A stretch of 64,000 nucleotides of DNA from Escherichia coli (GTDB lineage: Bacteria > Pseudomonadota > Gammaproteobacteria > Enterobacterales > Enterobacteriaceae): assembly GCF_030013205.1 (NCBI RefSeq), contig NZ_CP122648.1. One strand, written 5' to 3'. Positions 33,001 to 39,000 of the stretch are shown piece after piece. A program made the position numbers. Numbering within the stretch: position 1 is the first letter of the stretch; each line of letters begins with the position of its first letter.

Positions 33001-36000
33001 AATGGAAAAGTGGCGTGGTGAAAGCACCAGGCCGGAGCAGAAGGTTATTCTGGAGAGTTACTTTTTCGTTTCGGGCGTCGGATAAACAGCCATATAAACG
33101 TAGCCACAACTGCCGAGGGTGTCGGCTTCGCAGGTCAGCCCTTTTGCATACAGCGTGACGGTATGCTGATGGCGGGGATTCAGTTCACCGCTGGTGAGCA
33201 TGAGTTCCAGTTGTTTCATCAGCAGCGGAAAGGCCTGGTCCAGGTGGTACGAATCCGCGTCGCTGAACCGCCCTCTGATACCGGCGCGGTCGGCAAGGTA
33301 ATGCAACCGGTTGCCTTCCTGTACCAGACGGGCACCAAAACAGGGCGTCACGGTGCAGGGCAGTCCCCACCAGGTGCGGTCGTTATTGTCGTCGGGAAGC
33401 GTTGTCCCGGGGAGTGTGTCTGACACGATAAAATCCTCACAGAAAATTGGTTAAGAATGGTCCGGTGGTGGCGATAATTCTGCTCTTCTGAATGCCCTTC
33501 CAGACTCAGTTCAGGGTGACGCTCATCAGCCGGACATACGGACCAAAACTGTCCTTCCGGCGTTCTGCAAACACAGCCAGCACACCGGGAATATCCTGTA
33601 CTTCACGGCCGGTATATGTATCCGTGCTACCGTGCCAGCGGTATTTACCGGTACAGAACGGAAAAAGACGGGATGCAGGATGCTGACGGTGAATACGCAT
33701 GGCTTCACCACGGGTGATGATTTTCATGAGAATAGTCCTCCTGAATGTGAAAGTAAGAAACAGCTGAGAAAGAGAAACTGAAGTGATATGAAGGTGATTG
33801 TGACGGTGACGGGTTAAAGCAGACCGTGTTCCGCAAAGGAGAAAACCTGGCTGCCACCGATTATCAGATGGTCCGGTACCAGAATGCCAGTCTGGTGCAG
33901 TATGCTGACAGTATCACGTTAATTGCAGCATAAAGTGATGAGAGGCTAATGGAAGTTAAAACCAAAGCATTTCCGTCGTTGTTTATCCCGGGAGACGCCG
34001 GAAAAAGTGATTTCCCACACACGTTATAAACTTCCCCCTGCGAAGCTGAAAGCCTTCAGCTCTGCGGTAGACACCGGCTGGCAGAACTGACAATGAACAA
34101 ACTTTACGATCGCGTTCCGGCTTCTGTCTGGAAATATGTCACCTGAACGTTTGGTAATCACAGCGGAGTTGCACCAGGTGTTATCTGCTCTGTGCGATTC
34201 TTTTTGTCGCAAAGCTGTTGTCGGGAACTAGGATAATACCGGGAACGTTAAGCGGTATAGCGACAACAAAGAATTCGAAATCAAAAGGGAATGGTGTCCG
34301 GAGGTGTGGGTGATCATGGGCTGATTTTCGGGTATTAACGGCCTGTATCTGCTGAGGTTTTCTCGTATTTACCGGGGATCCGGTGCGTTACTGTCTGGCA
34401 CAGCAAACGCAGAGGCGGCGGGGCGTTCTGCCCCGTTGATTCCGGATAATCCCTCCCCTGTAACCTACTGCAACAGTACAAATACACTGACGCCTGAAAC
34501 GACAGCCAGAATCAGCACAGGCAGTAACGTCAGTAGAAAGAGCAGACGATCGGTATTTCGGTAATAGCCTGAGGAAGCTGTTGACGCGCAACTCGGGCAG
34601 CATTCCGTATTATGAGTAATTGCGTTACCACAGTCCCTGCACTTCTTTTTGCGTATCACGATCGCTCCCTCTCCACGCCTTATCCGTAACCTGTTTTTTA
34701 CATTAAAAAAACAACGCTGAAAATTCAACCGTCAGTCCGGAGACGACCGTTCGGGTTATCACAGAGTGCCTGAGACATTGCCCGGTTGGAGATGACTTCA
34801 GGGACTCTGCACATTTTTTACAGCGTGGTTATTCCGTATGAACGAAACCATACGGAGATTTAACCATGACATACGAGTACAACCCCTTCTGGCAACAACG
34901 TATCCGTGAGACGGTGCTGCGCGCACTGGATGTTCATCCCCGTCTGACGGCATTGCGGGTTGACCTGCGTCTCCCGGATGTACCGGCAGCAACGGACGCA
35001 GCTGTGATATCCCGCTTCATCAATGCCCTGAAAGCCCGAATCGACGCTTACCAGAAGCGTAAGCGCCGTGAAGGTAAACGCGTACATCCCACGACCCTGC
35101 ATTACGCCTGGGCCCGGGAATTCGGGGAGCTTAAAGGCAAAAAACACTATCACCTCCTGCTGCTGGTCAACCGGGATACCTGGTGTCGTGCCGGCGATTA
35201 CCGCGCTCCGAGATCACTGGCCGGGATGATTAAACAGGCCTGGTGCAGTGCCCTGGGGGGGGATGCCGGGCCTTATGCCACGTTGGCGCATTTTCCTGAC
35301 ACGTCGGCGGTGTGGCTGGAACGCGATGATGACACTGGCTTTCAGCAGGTGCTGGAACGTGCTGACTATCTGGCGAAGGAACATACCAAAGCTCACGCCA
35401 CTGGTGAGCGCAACTTTGGCTGCAGTCGTAGCTGAGCCCGACAGACGAGTTATCTGACCTCAGTGTGATGACGCGCTCACGGCCACCACACTGATTTTCC
35501 CTTCTGAGACCGGACTGAAACCGCCATTCACACCAGACCAGGCTGCCCGTACCGGGACGGCTGTTGCCTGCGTGTCGTCTGGCGCTAAGGAACATATACT
35601 ATGTACGCAAAATCTTTTCTCGCACTTGATGGCAACGGACGTCTGACCGGTGCCCGTACCGCACAGACTGCACCTTATGATCGCTACACCTGCCACCTTT
35701 GCGGCAGTGCACTCAGATACCACCCGCAATACGACACTGAACGTCCCTGGTTTGAACACACTGACGACGGGCTGACGGAGCACGGTCAGCAGTGCCCTTA
35801 TGTCAGACCAGAACGCAGGGAGATACAACTGATTAAGCGTCTGCAGCAATTCGTACCGGATGCCTTACCCGTGGTGCGTAAAGCCAGCCGGCACTGCAGA
35901 CAATGTCATCAAGATTATTATGGGGAGCGGTACTGCACGCACTGCCATACCGGGCACTTCAGTGAGGAGGGGTGCCCCTATTAAGTTGTCAAGCATGTTA

Positions 36001-39000
36001 TGACGCCTGCGGGGTATAAAAAGTCCCGTCGCGCATCATGGCGAACAGAACGTCGCAGCGTCGTCTCGCCAGGGCGATAAGCGCCTGATTGTGTCGTTTT
36101 CCCTGACTCATTTTGCGGGTGTAGTAAGCCCTGGAGATCGGATCCCTGAGCGCGGCGAAGGCCGACAGGAACAACGCCCGTTTGAGAGCTTTATTACCCC
36201 GTCGCGAGGGATGCTCACCGCGTATTGACGAGCCGGATCGCCGAGTTACCGGCGCAAGGCCAGCATAAGCAGCGAGATGTGCGGCAGAGGCGAAGGCGCG
36301 GCAGGCGACCTCGGTGAGGAGTCTGGCTGCGGTCCTGACACCGACTCCGGGCATACTGGTCAGGACCGGGTAAAGAGGGTGAGCAAGAACTCGCTGTTCT
36401 ACCTCAAGCGCCACCTCGTCTCTTTGCTTACGCAGCGTGATGAGCTGGAGTGCCAGACGTGGCAGTACTACGGCAGCGGCATTCGTGCCGGGAACGACGA
36501 CGGTTTGTTCGGCCAGTGCCTGAGCTATGTCTGCTGCAAGGCGTTTACCCAGACGAGGCGCAAGTTTGCAGAGCTGGGCTGCCAGCTTCTTCTCACCCAG
36601 CGAAGCGAGTTTTTCTGGTGAGGGATATCGCTGGAGAAGATCGAGTACCGCCGGGTGATCAAGTCTCGGACCGAGAACGCGCTCCAGTGCCGGATGTATC
36701 TGGGTCAGAAGGCCGCGGATACGGTTGCTGGCCTGCGTTGTCTGTGCGGCAAGATCATCATCGAAGCCGCAGAGCATGGAGAGTTCGGCGATTTGCTCGT
36801 CAGCCAGTTTCAGCGTGCGTAGCGCGTGAGGCAGGGTACGGGCAGCTTCGGCAATGATGGCAGCGTCACGAGCATCAGTTTTAGCTTCACCGGCGTGTAA
36901 GTCGGCTATGCGGCGCATGGTCAGTCCAGGGAGGTATCCGACAAGGACTCCTTCTGAGCGGGCAACGGCGACAGGTAACGCACCGATGGTAGCTGGCTGA
37001 TCAACAACCAGCAGTATCTGACCATGTTGTTTCAGGTCAGATATTAGCGACCTGAGTTTGTTTTCGTCGTTGGGTAATGCTTTATCGAACAGGCGTTTAC
37101 CTGAACGATTAATGGCTACAGCGTGATGCGTATCTTTACCGACATCAACGCCGATAAAGACCTGGACGGATTCGTAATCGCTGGATTCGGTCATTCTGTC
37201 TCCCTTGTATATGGGTTAACCAGATAACCACGGGGAGCAGGTACCGGCATCCACGTTACAGACGGTCCCGGCAAAAGTGCCTGACCTGACCCCTATTAGC
37301 GGTTACCAGCGCCCCACCAGACCCGGTGACATCACCCCCCGGATCATGGACGACTGGGGGCAGTAATCATGCCGGGTCTGGCTGGCTAACACCCCATTAT
37401 AAGGGGTACGAATAAAGTAACGGGGATCTTAGGCTTGGGTATTGGTTTGTTGCATATCATGAAAGTTAAGGGGTTCTGAAATGTTGTTGAGAATAACTAC
37501 CTCAGCTACGACGAGGTACATGCTTTTGACAGAGAAATGACAGAGAAATGACTGTCTGTCGTAAAGCTGATCGTGAATGCGGAGATATTCAGAACAAGTA
37601 TGCTGTAATTAATGCTGATAACCGGTTGAAATAGCATATTAATGTAGCTGTTGTTCCTCTGACGTATCAACCCCCCTCAGAGTGATTGACATCAGATAGA
37701 AATATTAGCATCATTATTTCATCAAATAACTCTCATTAACAATGGAGATAATAAAATGAAAAAACTGTCAGTTCTTTCAGCCATCATATTATCAGTAGCA
37801 AGCGGTTCCGTGCTGGCTGACAACCATTCGTTTTCTGTCGGTTATGCACAGAGTAAAATTCAGAACTTCAAGAATATTAGAGGGGTAAACCTGCAGTACA
37901 GGTATGAATGGGACTCCCCGGTTAGTATTATGGGCAGTTTCTCCTGGATGAAAGGGGATGGTAATCAGGAATATCATTCATATGGCGATTCAATTAAAAA
38001 CCAGGTTGATGCAAAATATTATTCCTTACTGACTGGCCCCGTATGGCGCATTAACGATTATATGTCACTGTATGCGGCTGGCGGCGTGGCGCATGTTAAA
38101 GCTGATGGTAAAACAGCATGGACAAACGTTGATGGTTATTTCGCCAGAGAAAATATTTCGAAAAAATCCACATCTTTTGCTTATGCTGCCGGGGTAATGA
38201 TCAATCCGACAAGTAATATTACAATTAATGCCGGATATGAAGGAACCAGAGCAAAACTTGGCGATAATTATTCTATTAATGGATTCAATATTGGCGTGGG
38301 TTATCGCTTTTAATAAAGTAGAACGAACATAATAGCGTTCATATCTGTTTTTTTACTTAACCAAGCGGTACATATATGTACCGCTTGTCTGTAATAAATC
38401 AATACCGCCTGTAACGGTACGAATGACTATTGTCATGAACGCAATCATGTTTCTGTTGTTGCCGAACATCGTTCTGTGCAGAGGCTTTTGGTGTGCCTTC
38501 CATCAGCCAGCGTAATGATTCTCAGGCAATTTTGTATCGTTTCGGTTAACTCATACTGATGCGTCGGTGGCGGGGCATCCGAACGATCGCAGTCTGACGA
38601 TGGTTGATTTATTTTGTTGCACAGGGGCGATCACCGGGCAGGTACCGGCGGTGGGCTCTGAAGTACTGAGTCGGGTAATTGCGTCAGGTCGTGAAGTACT
38701 GACACGGGGACTGGTGGCATCTGATGAAGTACTGATCCGGGAATGACTCCGAGCTGATTCAGAGTTTGATTCTCTGTCAGCCCACGTGGTTGCTGGCCTG
38801 GCTTGTTCTTGGTTTCGGGATGGAGTTACTTTTCCTCGCCGATCGGGTTCATCCGGCATTAAGAGTAATCGTTGTCTTGGGGATGTTATTCCTGCTGATA
38901 ATGATTGCGGGCGGTATGTGCCGTTCTCTTCTGTCACGAAAGAAAACATCATGACGATCCTGTTTACGTCGCTACATTTGTGGCGGCGGATGATGCCCGT

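What the first reader, a model, noticed from the sequence alone, without database searches (positions are those of the whole stretch)
35985..37450. IS110-family recombinase with a long upstream non-coding arm (candidate guide/bridge RNA region)
The 398-aa protein has the DEDD N-domain and serine-containing C-terminal domain typical of IS110-family recombinases. About 250 bp of GC-rich, ORF-free DNA sits 5' of the gene (37195-37450) and almost nothing 3', which is the layout in which this family encodes a structured non-coding RNA that programs target and donor recognition. Element ends could not be set by eye.
Basis: partly seen in the sequence, partly recalled or inferred. Interest (0 to 1): 0.6.

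Follow-up and report, generated by a model that had tools for sequence, protein, structure and literature searches.

The report
ISEc20 insertion sequence with bridge RNA
This is an intact copy of ISEc20, a common, already catalogued E. coli jumping gene of the IS110 family, and the DNA upstream of its recombinase gene encodes the expected guide ("bridge") RNA, here aimed at runs of C; it is an ordinary element.

Summary
Window 35973-37422 (minus strand, 1,450 bp) is ISEc20. RefSeq names it, and 1,119 of 5,426 complete E. coli genomes carry a copy covering at least 80% of it.

The 398-aa gene (35998-37194) scores as an IS110-family RNA-guided transposase. The upstream arm belongs to the element, but it is 228 nt (37195-37422), not about 256. 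The right end is 25 nt.

The arm encodes a conserved structured RNA with a 5' hairpin, a target-binding stem-loop and a donor-binding stem-loop. Across 70 relatives, 93.5% of cells pair and 19 pairs show compensatory changes. A covariance model built without the window or its closest relative finds 37231-37387 at 150 bits.

The loop sequences match the DNA as in IS621:
- UACUGCCCC and CCGGGGGGUG fit the poly-C insertion sites.
- AAUAGGGG equals the right end.
- GUAACGUG complements CA+CGTTAC at the left end.

Relatives with altered guides or ends change in step.

Durrant et al. 2024 already list the ISSfl4/ISEc20 cluster as having a left-end bridge RNA, so the finding is known.

Two side results. 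The donor carries CA where targets carry CC or CT. This copy's two flanks come from different sites, which indicates a rearrangement.

The parts
35973..37422 (-). Whole ISEc20 copy (1,450 bp, counting the CA after the right end)
   Evidence: The sequence is constant across 26 distinct E. coli insertion sites. RefSeq annotates it as 'IS110-like element ISEc20 family transposase'. It is 100% identical over its full length in porcine ETEC genomes.
37195..37422 (-). Left end (LE), 228 nt non-coding, encodes the bridge RNA
   Evidence: It is conserved in 70 relatives.
37414..37419 (-). -10-like hexamer TACTTT, which pairs with the RE -35 only when RE and LE are joined
   Evidence: The reconstructed junction reads TTGACA-17 nt-TACTTT. 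The same arrangement, with a 17-18 nt spacer, appears in 76 of 77 loci. Inference; no transcript data.
37391..37407 (-). 5' hairpin ACCCCUUAUAAUGGGGU
   Evidence: MFE fold. Helix 1 has 4 of 5 pairs with compensatory changes, although only 74% of cells pair because the MAFFT alignment is poor there.
37316..37382 (-). Target-binding stem-loop (TBL)
   Evidence: The outer helix has 15 pairs, 98.8% paired, 8 with compensatory changes.
37356..37365 (-). Left target guide UACUGCCCC(C), on the 5' side of the TBL loop
   Evidence: E. coli left flanks are invariably C at the last three positions, with G or C before them; L016, L017 and L027 match 8 of 9. Relatives with GACGCU or UUCAUCC at this position have matching left flanks.
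37343..37354 (-). TBL inner hairpin GUCG...UGAU
   Evidence: Helix 3 is 97% paired and conserved without covariation.
37333..37342 (-). Right target guide CCGGGGGGUG, on the 3' side of the TBL loop
   Evidence: Its reverse complement is CA+CCCCCCGG. The C run to the right of the IS is exactly 6 in 14 of 26 E. coli sites. Relatives with UGAGCG or UGAGAG have right flanks CGCTCA or CTCTCA.
37233..37314 (-). Donor-binding stem-loop (DBL)
   Evidence: The closing helix has 6 pairs, 4 with compensatory changes (CG 33, UA 26 and so on). The loop sequences are near-invariant.
37287..37297 (-). Left donor guide AAUAGGGG(UCA)
   Evidence: It is identical to the right end AATAGGGG. The guide 7-mer equals the RE 7-mer in 66 of 78 loci, including all ATAGAGG (8) and four ATAGGGA loci. 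ATAGGAG in L101 was checked by eye.
37264..37286 (-). DBL inner hairpin
   Evidence: Its sequence varies but remains a hairpin in relatives. Helix 7 has 2 of 3 pairs with compensatory changes.
37251..37259 (-). Right donor guide GUAACGUG(G)
   Evidence: Its reverse complement (C)CACGTTAC equals CA + CGTTAC, the RE-LE junction. CGTAACGTGG is near-invariant in 70 relatives.
37231..37387 (-). Match to covariance model R1, built from 68 relatives with the window and L041 excluded
   Evidence: 150.3 bits, E 4.8e-33, full-length match. The only other hit, at 19.7 bits, is the antisense of the same stem.
37200..37206 (-). Shine-Dalgarno AAGGGAG
   Evidence: Read from the sequence.
35998..37194 (-). 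Recombinase gene, 398 aa
35975..35997 (-). Right end (RE) after the stop codon, ending in TAATAGGGG
   Evidence: The end CTTGAC[AG]...ATAGGGGCA is conserved in relatives.
35987..35992 (-). -35 hexamer TTGACA in the RE
35973..35974 (-). Donor dinucleotide CA at the right junction
   Evidence: It is CA in 65 of 78 right junctions and CC in 8.
37423..37424 (-). Target-derived dinucleotide CC at the left junction
   Evidence: It is CC in 92 of 103 left junctions and CT in 8, and never CA.
35969..35972 (-). Right flank C run (CCCC, then TCCTCACTG), the 3' part of the zinc-ribbon gene
   Evidence: The unoccupied homologue in strain fS54a reads CATTCTGCCAC|CCCCTCCTCACTG.

Best explanation
The region is an intact copy of the insertion sequence ISEc20 (IS110 family, IS110 group).

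Its 228-nt left end encodes a bridge RNA of about 180 nt with three parts: a 5' hairpin, a target-binding stem-loop and a donor-binding stem-loop.

By analogy with IS621, the element leaves its site as a circle. Joining RE to LE creates a sigma-70 promoter (TTGACA, 17 nt, TACTTT) that would start the RNA at the base of the 5' hairpin.

The recombinase has predicted catalytic residues D17, D65, D107, D110 and S320. It would bind the RNA, and each loop of the RNA would hold one DNA partner.
- The donor loop holds the RE-LE junction ATAGGGG-CA-CGTTAC. AAUAGGGG pairs with the bottom strand and GUAACGUG with the top strand.
- The target loop holds a run of about ten C's. UACUGCCCC pairs with the bottom strand and CCGGGGGG with the top strand.

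Strand exchange occurs at, or one base to the right of, the CA|CG step. On the target this is six C's in from the 3' end of the run.

Shown here:
- the identity and ends of the element;
- RNA structure conserved with covariation;
- guide-to-DNA matches, and their co-variation in relatives;
- the promoter geometry at the reconstructed junction.

Inferred from IS621 and related work:
- transcription of the RNA and its binding to the recombinase;
- the circular intermediate;
- the exact bond that is cleaved.

This copy has a left flank from one C-tract site and a right flank from another. It therefore probably marks a rearrangement between two ISEc20 copies.
For: - Identity and ends.
- Protein family and catalytic residues.
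- Fold: -98.3 kcal/mol, z = -2.1.
- Conserved structure: RNAalifold gives 38 pairs, 16 of them compensatory.
- Manual structure: 93.5% of cells paired against 31-55% when the partner is slid. 19 pairs have changes on both sides. The covariation score is 0.318 against at most 0.083.
- Independent covariance-model detection: 150.3 bits, E 4.8e-33.
- Guide coordinates and junction promoter.
- The left donor guide equals the RE in 66 of 78 loci, including the variant classes.
- Retargeted natural variants: L102, L108, L110, L111 and L101 have flanks that fit their guides, and unoccupied repeat copies lie next to L108 and L110.
- E. coli target profile: C at T7-T15, and a modal right run of 6 that equals the six G's of the right target guide.
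- The window's right junction matches the unoccupied zinc-ribbon site exactly.
- Literature: a bridge RNA is listed in the LE for ISSfl4/ISEc20.
Against: - No transcript, binding or recombination data exist for ISEc20.
- Rfam 15 gives no hit in the LE, which more likely means it lacks a family that covers this RNA than that the RNA is absent.
- No sigma-70 promoter is found in the integrated context.
- The window's own flanks match the guides only moderately: 5 of 9 on the left, and 5 of 8 for the RT bases on the right.
- The homopolymer target blurs the register, and C-run lengths differ between strains at the same site (L018 against L024, L013 against L017).
- The left and right target guides (C5 and G6) pair with each other in the free-RNA fold.
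- The left donor guide has an extra U (GGGGUCA against GGGGCA). Its last two positions vary among relatives, so pairing over the core is not supported for that guide.
- Guide-target co-variation rests on only three guide classes.
Confidence: 0.85

Rival explanations
1. The left end is only a leader for the recombinase mRNA (promoter, translational control, an anti-Shine-Dalgarno hairpin). Its conservation would reflect gene regulation, not DNA guidance.
For: - The 3' strand of the DBL closing stem (CUCCC) can pair with the Shine-Dalgarno GGGAG in the MFE fold.
- A perfect TATAAT sits in the 5' hairpin loop.
Against: - This does not explain why the loop 7-mer tracks the right-end 7-mer (66 of 78 loci, variant classes included).
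- It does not explain why relatives with different target-loop sequences sit in matching flanks.
- It does not explain why the six G's equal the modal right C run.
Confidence: 0.04
2. The upstream arm is flanking DNA, not part of the element.
Against: Bases 37195-37422 are identical or nearly so at 26 unrelated insertion sites on chromosomes and plasmids.
Confidence: 0.01
3. Alternative register: the core is CA in the target as well. The ideal site would be CTGCCCC-CA-CCCCCC, with all four guides pairing CA as in IS621, and the missing A at left junctions would be secondary.
For: - The left target guide reads ...CCCC-CA-G, the right guides end in UG, and the left donor guide ends in CA.
- The unoccupied zinc-ribbon site contains CTGC-CA-CCCCC.
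Against: - None of 103 left junctions ends in CA.
- In L110 this register puts the left and right target guides 2 nt out of step, while the other register fits with one mismatch.
- It predicts 5 C's at the window's right junction, and 4 are seen.
Confidence: 0.12
4. The mismatched flanks of this copy come from a simple insertion into a site that the databases do not sample, not from a rearrangement between two copies.
For: Only complete E. coli genomes were searched.
Against: - Each flank has its own unoccupied counterpart that continues differently: L010 has AAGATCCCCCCCTCATC and L113 has CATTCTGCCAC|CCCC.
- None of 5,426 genomes joins the two flanks.
- The missing halves are not in the window.
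Confidence: 0.15

Closest known systems
ISEc20 / ISSfl4 (ISfinder names; RefSeq 'IS110-like element ISEc20 family transposase')
   Same: It is the same element. It is 100% identical over 1,450 bp in porcine ETEC genomes and 99.7-99.9% identical in other E. coli and on plasmids. Durrant et al. 2024, Table S5, lists the cluster with a bridge RNA detected in the LE.
   Different: Nothing about the element differs. This copy has flanks from two different sites.
IS621 bridge RNA and recombinase (Durrant et al. 2024, PMC11208160; Hiraizumi et al. 2024, PMC11208158)
   Same: - The RNA is encoded in the LE and is about 180 nt (177 nt in IS621).
- It has a 5' hairpin followed by a target loop and a donor loop.
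[quoted passage not shown]
- The -35 lies in the RE and the -10 in the LE.
- The C-terminal domains align, including the catalytic Ser.
   Different: - The protein is distant: only the C-terminal domain aligns significantly (57 bits), and it is 398 aa against 326 aa.
- The target is a C homopolymer, not a REP element.
- The right target guide pairs with 6 or more bases.
- The dinucleotide at the crossover is CA in the donor but CC or CT in targets, whereas IS621 has CT in both.
- The second acidic catalytic residue appears to be Asp.
ISBma3-like elements of Burkholderiales, and relatives in Microbacteriaceae and Micrococcaceae
   Same: Their proteins are 69-83% identical, and the LE RNA, donor-loop sequences and poly-C guides are the same in most.
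   Different: The hosts differ. The 5' hairpin is longer in the actinobacterial copies. A few have retargeted loops, for example ACGCT|CGCTCA in Arthrobacter.
IS1111-group elements with seekRNA or bridge RNA in the right end
   Same: They use the same recombinase family and the same RNA-guided principle.
   Different: Their RNA lies in a long RE and they have sub-terminal inverted repeats. Here the RE is 25 nt and no terminal inverted repeat is present (best 10 of 20, which is chance).
CazIS110-1 (Sun et al. 2025 preprint, 10.1101/2025.10.25.684509)
   Same: That study reports top-strand excision and insertion. The junction pattern seen here, with the target dinucleotide on the left and the donor CA on the right, is what top-strand transfer predicts.
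   Different: It is a different element, and nothing has been tested experimentally for ISEc20.

Membership tests
IS110 family insertion sequence (IS110 group) | [quoted passage not shown] | tested here: met
   PF01548 is on record for the exact protein. NF033542 scores 239 bits against a cutoff of 140. D17, D65, D107 and D110 align to D11, E60, D102 and D105 of IS621, although that alignment is weak. All four residues are invariant in 8 relatives.
IS110 family insertion sequence (IS110 group) | C-terminal Tnp domain with a conserved Ser (PF02371) | tested here: met
   PF02371 is on record. Residues 276-392 align to IS621 198-317, E 2e-14, and S320-G321 falls on S241-G242.
IS110 family insertion sequence (IS110 group) | Multiple copies with constant ends at different sites | tested here: met
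   There are 26 distinct E. coli sites, and 1,119 genomes carry a copy covering at least 80% of the element.
IS110 family insertion sequence (IS110 group) | No terminal inverted repeats and no multi-base target duplication | tested here: met
   The best terminal inverted match is 10 of 20, against a shuffled mean of 9.6. In L110, comparing the occupied and unoccupied repeats shows only a shared CG.
IS110 family insertion sequence (IS110 group) | Long LE and short RE (the reverse holds in the IS1111 group) | tested here: met
   The LE is 228 nt and the RE is 25 nt.
IS110 family insertion sequence (IS110 group) | Circular intermediate whose RE-LE junction forms a promoter | not testable with these tools
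   The sequence is compatible: TTGACA-17 nt-TACTTT here, and a 17-18 nt spacer in 76 of 77 loci. In L050 and L107 the RE abuts a CGTTAC-like sequence, but no second bridge RNA follows, so these are not tandem copies.
Bridge RNA (IS621 type) | An LE-encoded RNA with a 5' stem-loop and two stem-loops that carry internal loops, conserved with covariation | tested here: met
Bridge RNA (IS621 type) | The first internal loop matches the target: the 5' side has the sense of the left target, and the 3' side complements the right target | tested here: met
   for ISEc20, and for the retargeted relatives. There are only three guide classes, so few independent events.
Bridge RNA (IS621 type) | The second internal loop matches the donor ends (RE sense, LE complement) | tested here: met
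   AAUAGGGG equals the RE, and the reverse complement of GUAACGUG equals CA+CGTTAC. Guide and RE 7-mers agree in 66 of 78 loci, including the variant classes.
Bridge RNA (IS621 type) | The same core dinucleotide in target and donor, paired by all four guides | tested here: not met
   The donor has CA (65 of 78 right junctions). The left junctions have CC (92) or CT (8) and never CA. The left target guide specifies CC or CT, and the two right guides specify CA. Only the first base, C, is shared.
Bridge RNA (IS621 type) | The RNA is transcribed, binds the recombinase, and is required for recombination | not testable with these tools
   No expression or biochemical data are available here.
Rfam-curated RNA family | A match at or above the gathering score | tested here: not met
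   Nothing in 37195-37422 appears even at E up to 10. This more likely means the library lacks a family covering this RNA than that the RNA is absent.

The most novel reading that the evidence does not exclude
In the ISEc20/ISBma3 clade the dinucleotide at the crossover differs between donor (CA) and target (CC or CT), which gives each strand exchange a natural genetic mark.

Across about 100 natural copies the left junction always carries the target's dinucleotide, and the right junction mostly carries the donor's. The reciprocal pattern expected from replicating a Holliday-junction heteroduplex was never seen: a left junction ending in (GG)CA paired with a right end ATAGG+CCCC.

This would be a footprint, left in natural genomes, of top-strand-only transfer (copy-out, top-strand paste-in) rather than dual-strand resolution.

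Separately, an element aimed at hypermutable C tracts, whose two target guides pair with each other, might be gated by tract length or by RNA refolding.
Probability: 0.3. Interest if true: 0.55.

Novelty: already known. Interest (0 to 1): 0.3.

Why it matters
The element is an ordinary, named insertion sequence, and a bridge RNA in its left end is already listed in the literature.

The added value is a worked anatomy for a clade far from IS621:
- exact ends;
- four assigned guides;
- a poly-C target;
- a junction promoter.

Bridge recombinases are being developed as genome-editing tools, so a natural system with a longer right target guide and a non-identical core could widen the design rules.

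The CA against CC/CT asymmetry gives a cheap way to test the disputed integration mechanism, top-strand transfer against Holliday-junction resolution.

For this genome, the copy marks a rearrangement inside a prophage-like island of a porcine ETEC lineage and alters the last four residues of a zinc-ribbon protein.

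Tried and rejected
- Rfam 15 scan at E up to 10: only chance hits, none in the LE.
- Sigma-70 scan of the integrated locus: no sites. The promoter appears only when RE and LE are joined.
- Search for an empty site with the two window flanks joined: none in 5,426 genomes. This led to the chimeric-flank reading.
- Empty sites for L001 (alpha-2-macroglobulin family gene) and L003 (downstream of ihfA): the C-run lengths do not add up exactly, so homopolymer sites cannot fix the crossover.
- My first idea, a CC core duplicated at both ends with the LE starting at GTTAC: dropped after the non-homopolymer relatives and the RE-CGTTAC abutments.
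- Reading L050 and L107 as tandem copies or circle junctions: rejected, because the covariance model finds no second RNA downstream and L050 continues into an unrelated gene.
- The genome count (3,847 genomes) was inflated by matches to the flanks. I re-ran the search with the element alone.
- The held supplements of Durrant et al. do not contain the ISEc20 guide sequences.
- Papers mentioning ISEc20, ISSfl4 or ISBma3 describe no bridge RNA details.

Full report
**What is there**

A 398-aa ORF lies at 35998-37194 on the minus strand. It matches NCBIfam NF033542, 'IS110 family RNA-guided transposase', at 239 bits against a cutoff of 140. The exact protein carries PF01548 and PF02371 in public records.

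Megablast against complete E. coli genomes shows the locus is annotated 'IS110-like element ISEc20 family transposase'. It is 100% identical, flanks included, in porcine ETEC/O139 strains.

With the element alone as query, 1,119 of 5,426 genomes hold a copy covering at least 80% of it. Genomes carry up to 9 places each. 190 plasmids of Shigella, Escherichia, Klebsiella and others also carry it.

By alignment to IS621 (PDB 8WT6), S320-G321 falls on the catalytic S241-G242. D17, D65, D107 and D110 fall on D11, E60, D102 and D105. The N-terminal part of that alignment is weak. All five residues are invariant among eight relatives.

**The ends**

I collected copies from 26 different E. coli contexts and lined up their junctions. 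The constant sequence starts at CGTTACTTTATT (C = window 37422) and ends at TTAATAGGGGCA (A = 35973), which is 1,450 bp.

The left end (LE) is 228 nt and the right end (RE) after the stop codon is 25 nt. There are no terminal inverted repeats: the best match is 10 of 20, which is the shuffled expectation.

The flanks are poly-C. In the 26 sites the nine positions around the element are C in 23 to 26 sites each. The C run to the right of the element is exactly six in 14 of 26 sites. C-run lengths differ between strains at the same site, for example L018 against L024 and L013 against L017. Empty sites therefore do not add up exactly.

**The RNA**

The LE folds into a 5' hairpin and two long stem-loops with internal loops, at -98.3 kcal/mol and z = -2.1.

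A scan of one genome per species returned 80 relatives with 69-94% protein identity. They come from Burkholderiales, Microbacteriaceae and Micrococcaceae.

Their LEs align well. RNAalifold predicts 38 pairs, 16 of them with compensatory changes.

I then tested a structure I specified myself, which leaves out pairs between guide sequences.
- 93.5% of cells pair, against 31-55% when partners are slid by 1-3 columns.
- 19 pairs have changes on both sides.
- The covariation score is 0.318, against 0.083 or less in the slid controls and 0.188 in shuffles; 0 of 500 shuffles reach it.

I also built a covariance model from 68 relatives, excluding the window and its nearest relative L041. It finds window 37231-37387 on the minus strand at 150.3 bits, E 4.8e-33. 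Nothing else real turns up in the 64 kb.

Rfam 15 itself has no match there.

**The guides**

The rules for IS621 are as follows. [quoted passage not shown] The 3' side is complementary to the top strand right of it.

The donor loop fits these rules.
- Its 5' side reads AAUAGGGG(UCA) at 37297-37287, which is identical to the RE end AATAGGGG.
- Its 3' side reads GUAACGUG(G) at 37259-37251. The reverse complement, CACGTTAC, is the RE's CA followed by the LE's CGTTAC.
- Across loci that have both ends, the loop 7-mer equals the RE 7-mer in 66 of 78.
- This includes all eight ATAGAGG loci and four ATAGGGA loci. L101 (ATAGGAG in both) was checked by eye.

The target loop also fits.
- Its 5' side reads UACUGCCCC(C) at 37365-37356, and its 3' side reads CCGGGGGGUG at 37342-37333.
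- The six G's equal the modal six C's to the right of the element. The CCCC preceded by G fits the left flanks, where L016, L017 and L027 match 8 of 9.

Natural retargeted relatives give the strongest support.
- Arthrobacter copies L102, L108, L110 and L111 carry G(A/U)GACGCU and UGAGCG or UGAGAG in the target loop.
- Their flanks read ...GGACGCT|IS|CGCTCACG and ...ACGCT|IS|CTCTCACT.
- Unoccupied copies of the same repeats lie a few dozen bases away: GGACGCTCGCTCACGTATG and CAAACGCCCGCTCAGC.
- L101 carries UUCAUCC and has the left flank TTTCATCC.

**Where the exchange happens**

Comparing occupied and unoccupied repeats in L110 and L108, and looking at the single shared C in the poly-C copies, places the crossover at, or one base to the right of, the step between ...ATAGGGGCA and CGTTAC....

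By homology to IS621, where the top strand is cut just 3' of the core, I call CA the donor's core dinucleotide.

Targets carry CC or CT at that place. Left junctions read CC in 92 cases, CT in 8, CG in 2 and AC in 1, and never CA. Right junctions read CA in 65 and CC in 8. The left target guide specifies the target's version, and both right-hand guides specify CA.

The window's own right junction agrees. The unoccupied zinc-ribbon site in strain fS54a reads CATTCTGCCAC|CCCCTCCTCACTG. A crossover after TTCTGCCAC (7 of 9 to the guide) gives exactly the observed GGGGCA|CCCCTCC.

An alternative register with CA in the target too fits less well. No left junction ends in CA, the two target guides fall out of step in L110, and the C count at the window junction is one off.

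The pattern of target dinucleotide on the left and donor dinucleotide on the right is what transfer of the top strand alone would leave. A 2025 preprint reports such transfer for another IS110 element. This link is inference.

**The promoter**

No sigma-70 site is found in the integrated locus.

Joining RE to LE gives TTGACA, 17 nt, TACTTT. The same geometry recurs in 76 of 77 loci: TTGAC[AGT], a 17-18 nt spacer, then TAC[TC][TA]T. A start about 7 nt downstream would fall at the base of the 5' hairpin. That gives an RNA of about 180 nt, close to IS621's 177 nt.

**This particular copy**

No complete E. coli genome joins the window's two flanks.
- The left flank (Ail/Lom side) continues in ETEC1716 as AAGATCCCCCCCTCATC... 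towards a DUF596 gene.
- The right flank continues in fS54a into a second zinc-ribbon gene.
- Neither missing half is in the window.

The simplest reading is recombination between two ISEc20 copies that had inserted at two C tracts. That would delete or rearrange the DNA between them. The zinc-ribbon ORF at 35601-35984 now ends ...EEGCPY, using IS sequence, instead of ...EEGVAE.

**What is known**

Durrant et al. 2024 predicted bridge RNAs by covariance model in 85.7% of ISfinder IS110-group elements. Their Supplementary Table 5 lists 'ISSfl4 | LE | IS110 | ISEc20;ISSfl4'.

I found no paper that gives the guides, the poly-C target or the core asymmetry for this clade. The library is incomplete, so this is not proof of absence.

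**Verdict**

The anatomy above is a refinement rather than a discovery.

Noticed in passing
window 37423-37700 and 35560-35972: The two flanks of this ISEc20 copy come from different C-tract sites and are not contiguous in any of 5,426 E. coli genomes. The copy probably marks a deletion or rearrangement between two IS copies.
   Followed up: yes
window 35601-35984 (+): The insertion rewrites the C-terminus of the zinc-ribbon (DUF7828) ORF. It ends ...EEGCPY* using IS sequence, where the unoccupied homologue ends ...EEGVAE*. The second zinc-ribbon gene that follows in other strains is missing here.
   Followed up: partly
L046, L056, L086, L033, L097, L103, L005, L108 (right junctions): In a minority of copies the last 2-5 bases of the right end (..GGGGCA) are replaced by C's, for example ACATAG+C13 and ATAGG+C10. 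L097 has more than 50 C's. None has the reciprocal GGCA at its left junction. Mismatch repair, slippage or aberrant resolution are all possible, and the cause is unexplained.
   Followed up: partly
L103 (target loop) and L094 (donor loop): The guides themselves show slippage or duplication. In L103 the right target guide's G run has grown to GGGGGGGGGGGGGAGGG. L094 has a 7-nt duplication (GCTAATA) just before the left donor guide.
   Followed up: no
L023-L025, L028, L030 (E. coli): A second ISEc20 allele circulates in E. coli. Its left target guide is UACUUCCCC rather than UACUGCCCC, and GC replaces UC after AUAGGGG in the donor loop. Its insertion sites are still poly-C.
   Followed up: no
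window 37391-37407: The 3' arm of the 5' hairpin (UAAUGGGGU) resembles the right end and the left donor guide (UAAUAGGGG), and the same holds in ISBma3-like relatives (AUCGGGGC against AUAGGGGC). The hairpin loop contains a perfect TATAAT. Whether this is mimicry, a second promoter or coincidence is not known.
   Followed up: no
window 37233-37238 and 37200-37206: CUCCC in the 3' strand of the donor-loop closing stem is complementary to the Shine-Dalgarno GGGAG. The MFE fold pairs them, which suggests a possible link between RNA folding and recombinase translation.
   Followed up: no
L033-L112: Recombinases 69-83% identical to the E. coli protein, with near-identical donor-loop sequences, occur in Burkholderiales and in high-GC Actinobacteria (Microbacterium, Arthrobacter, Cryobacterium). 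This points to recent transfer across phyla.
   Followed up: no
window 32591-33426 and 34866-35435: The neighbouring ORFs look like a CbtA/CbeA-type toxin-antitoxin pair (recognised from memory, not tested). A YagK/YfjJ-domain protein also lies there (Pfam domain). The IS therefore sits in a CP4-57-like prophage or island.
   Followed up: no
window 38363-38386: A perfect 24-bp palindrome, AAGCGGTACATATATGTACCGCTT, lies downstream of the Ail/Lom gene. It surfaced as a spurious microRNA hit in the Rfam scan.
   Followed up: no
window 39089-39664 and 39703-40692 (+): Two adjacent same-strand ORFs, one membrane-like of 191 aa and one of 329 aa, could be the two halves of a single split gene. A sulfatase or phosphoethanolamine-transferase identity for the second is a guess from reading the translation. 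Nothing here was tested.
   Followed up: no
L011 and hits H46-H49 (alpha-2-macroglobulin family gene): In strain 472 the poly-C tract that ISEc20 occupies in O55:H7 has 7 C's, and the gene is annotated as frameshifted. Hits in O157:H7 LSU61 and two other strains span 401-402 bases against a 400-base query containing 6 C's, which suggests 7-8 C's there. This is tract hypervariability at an IS target.
   Followed up: partly
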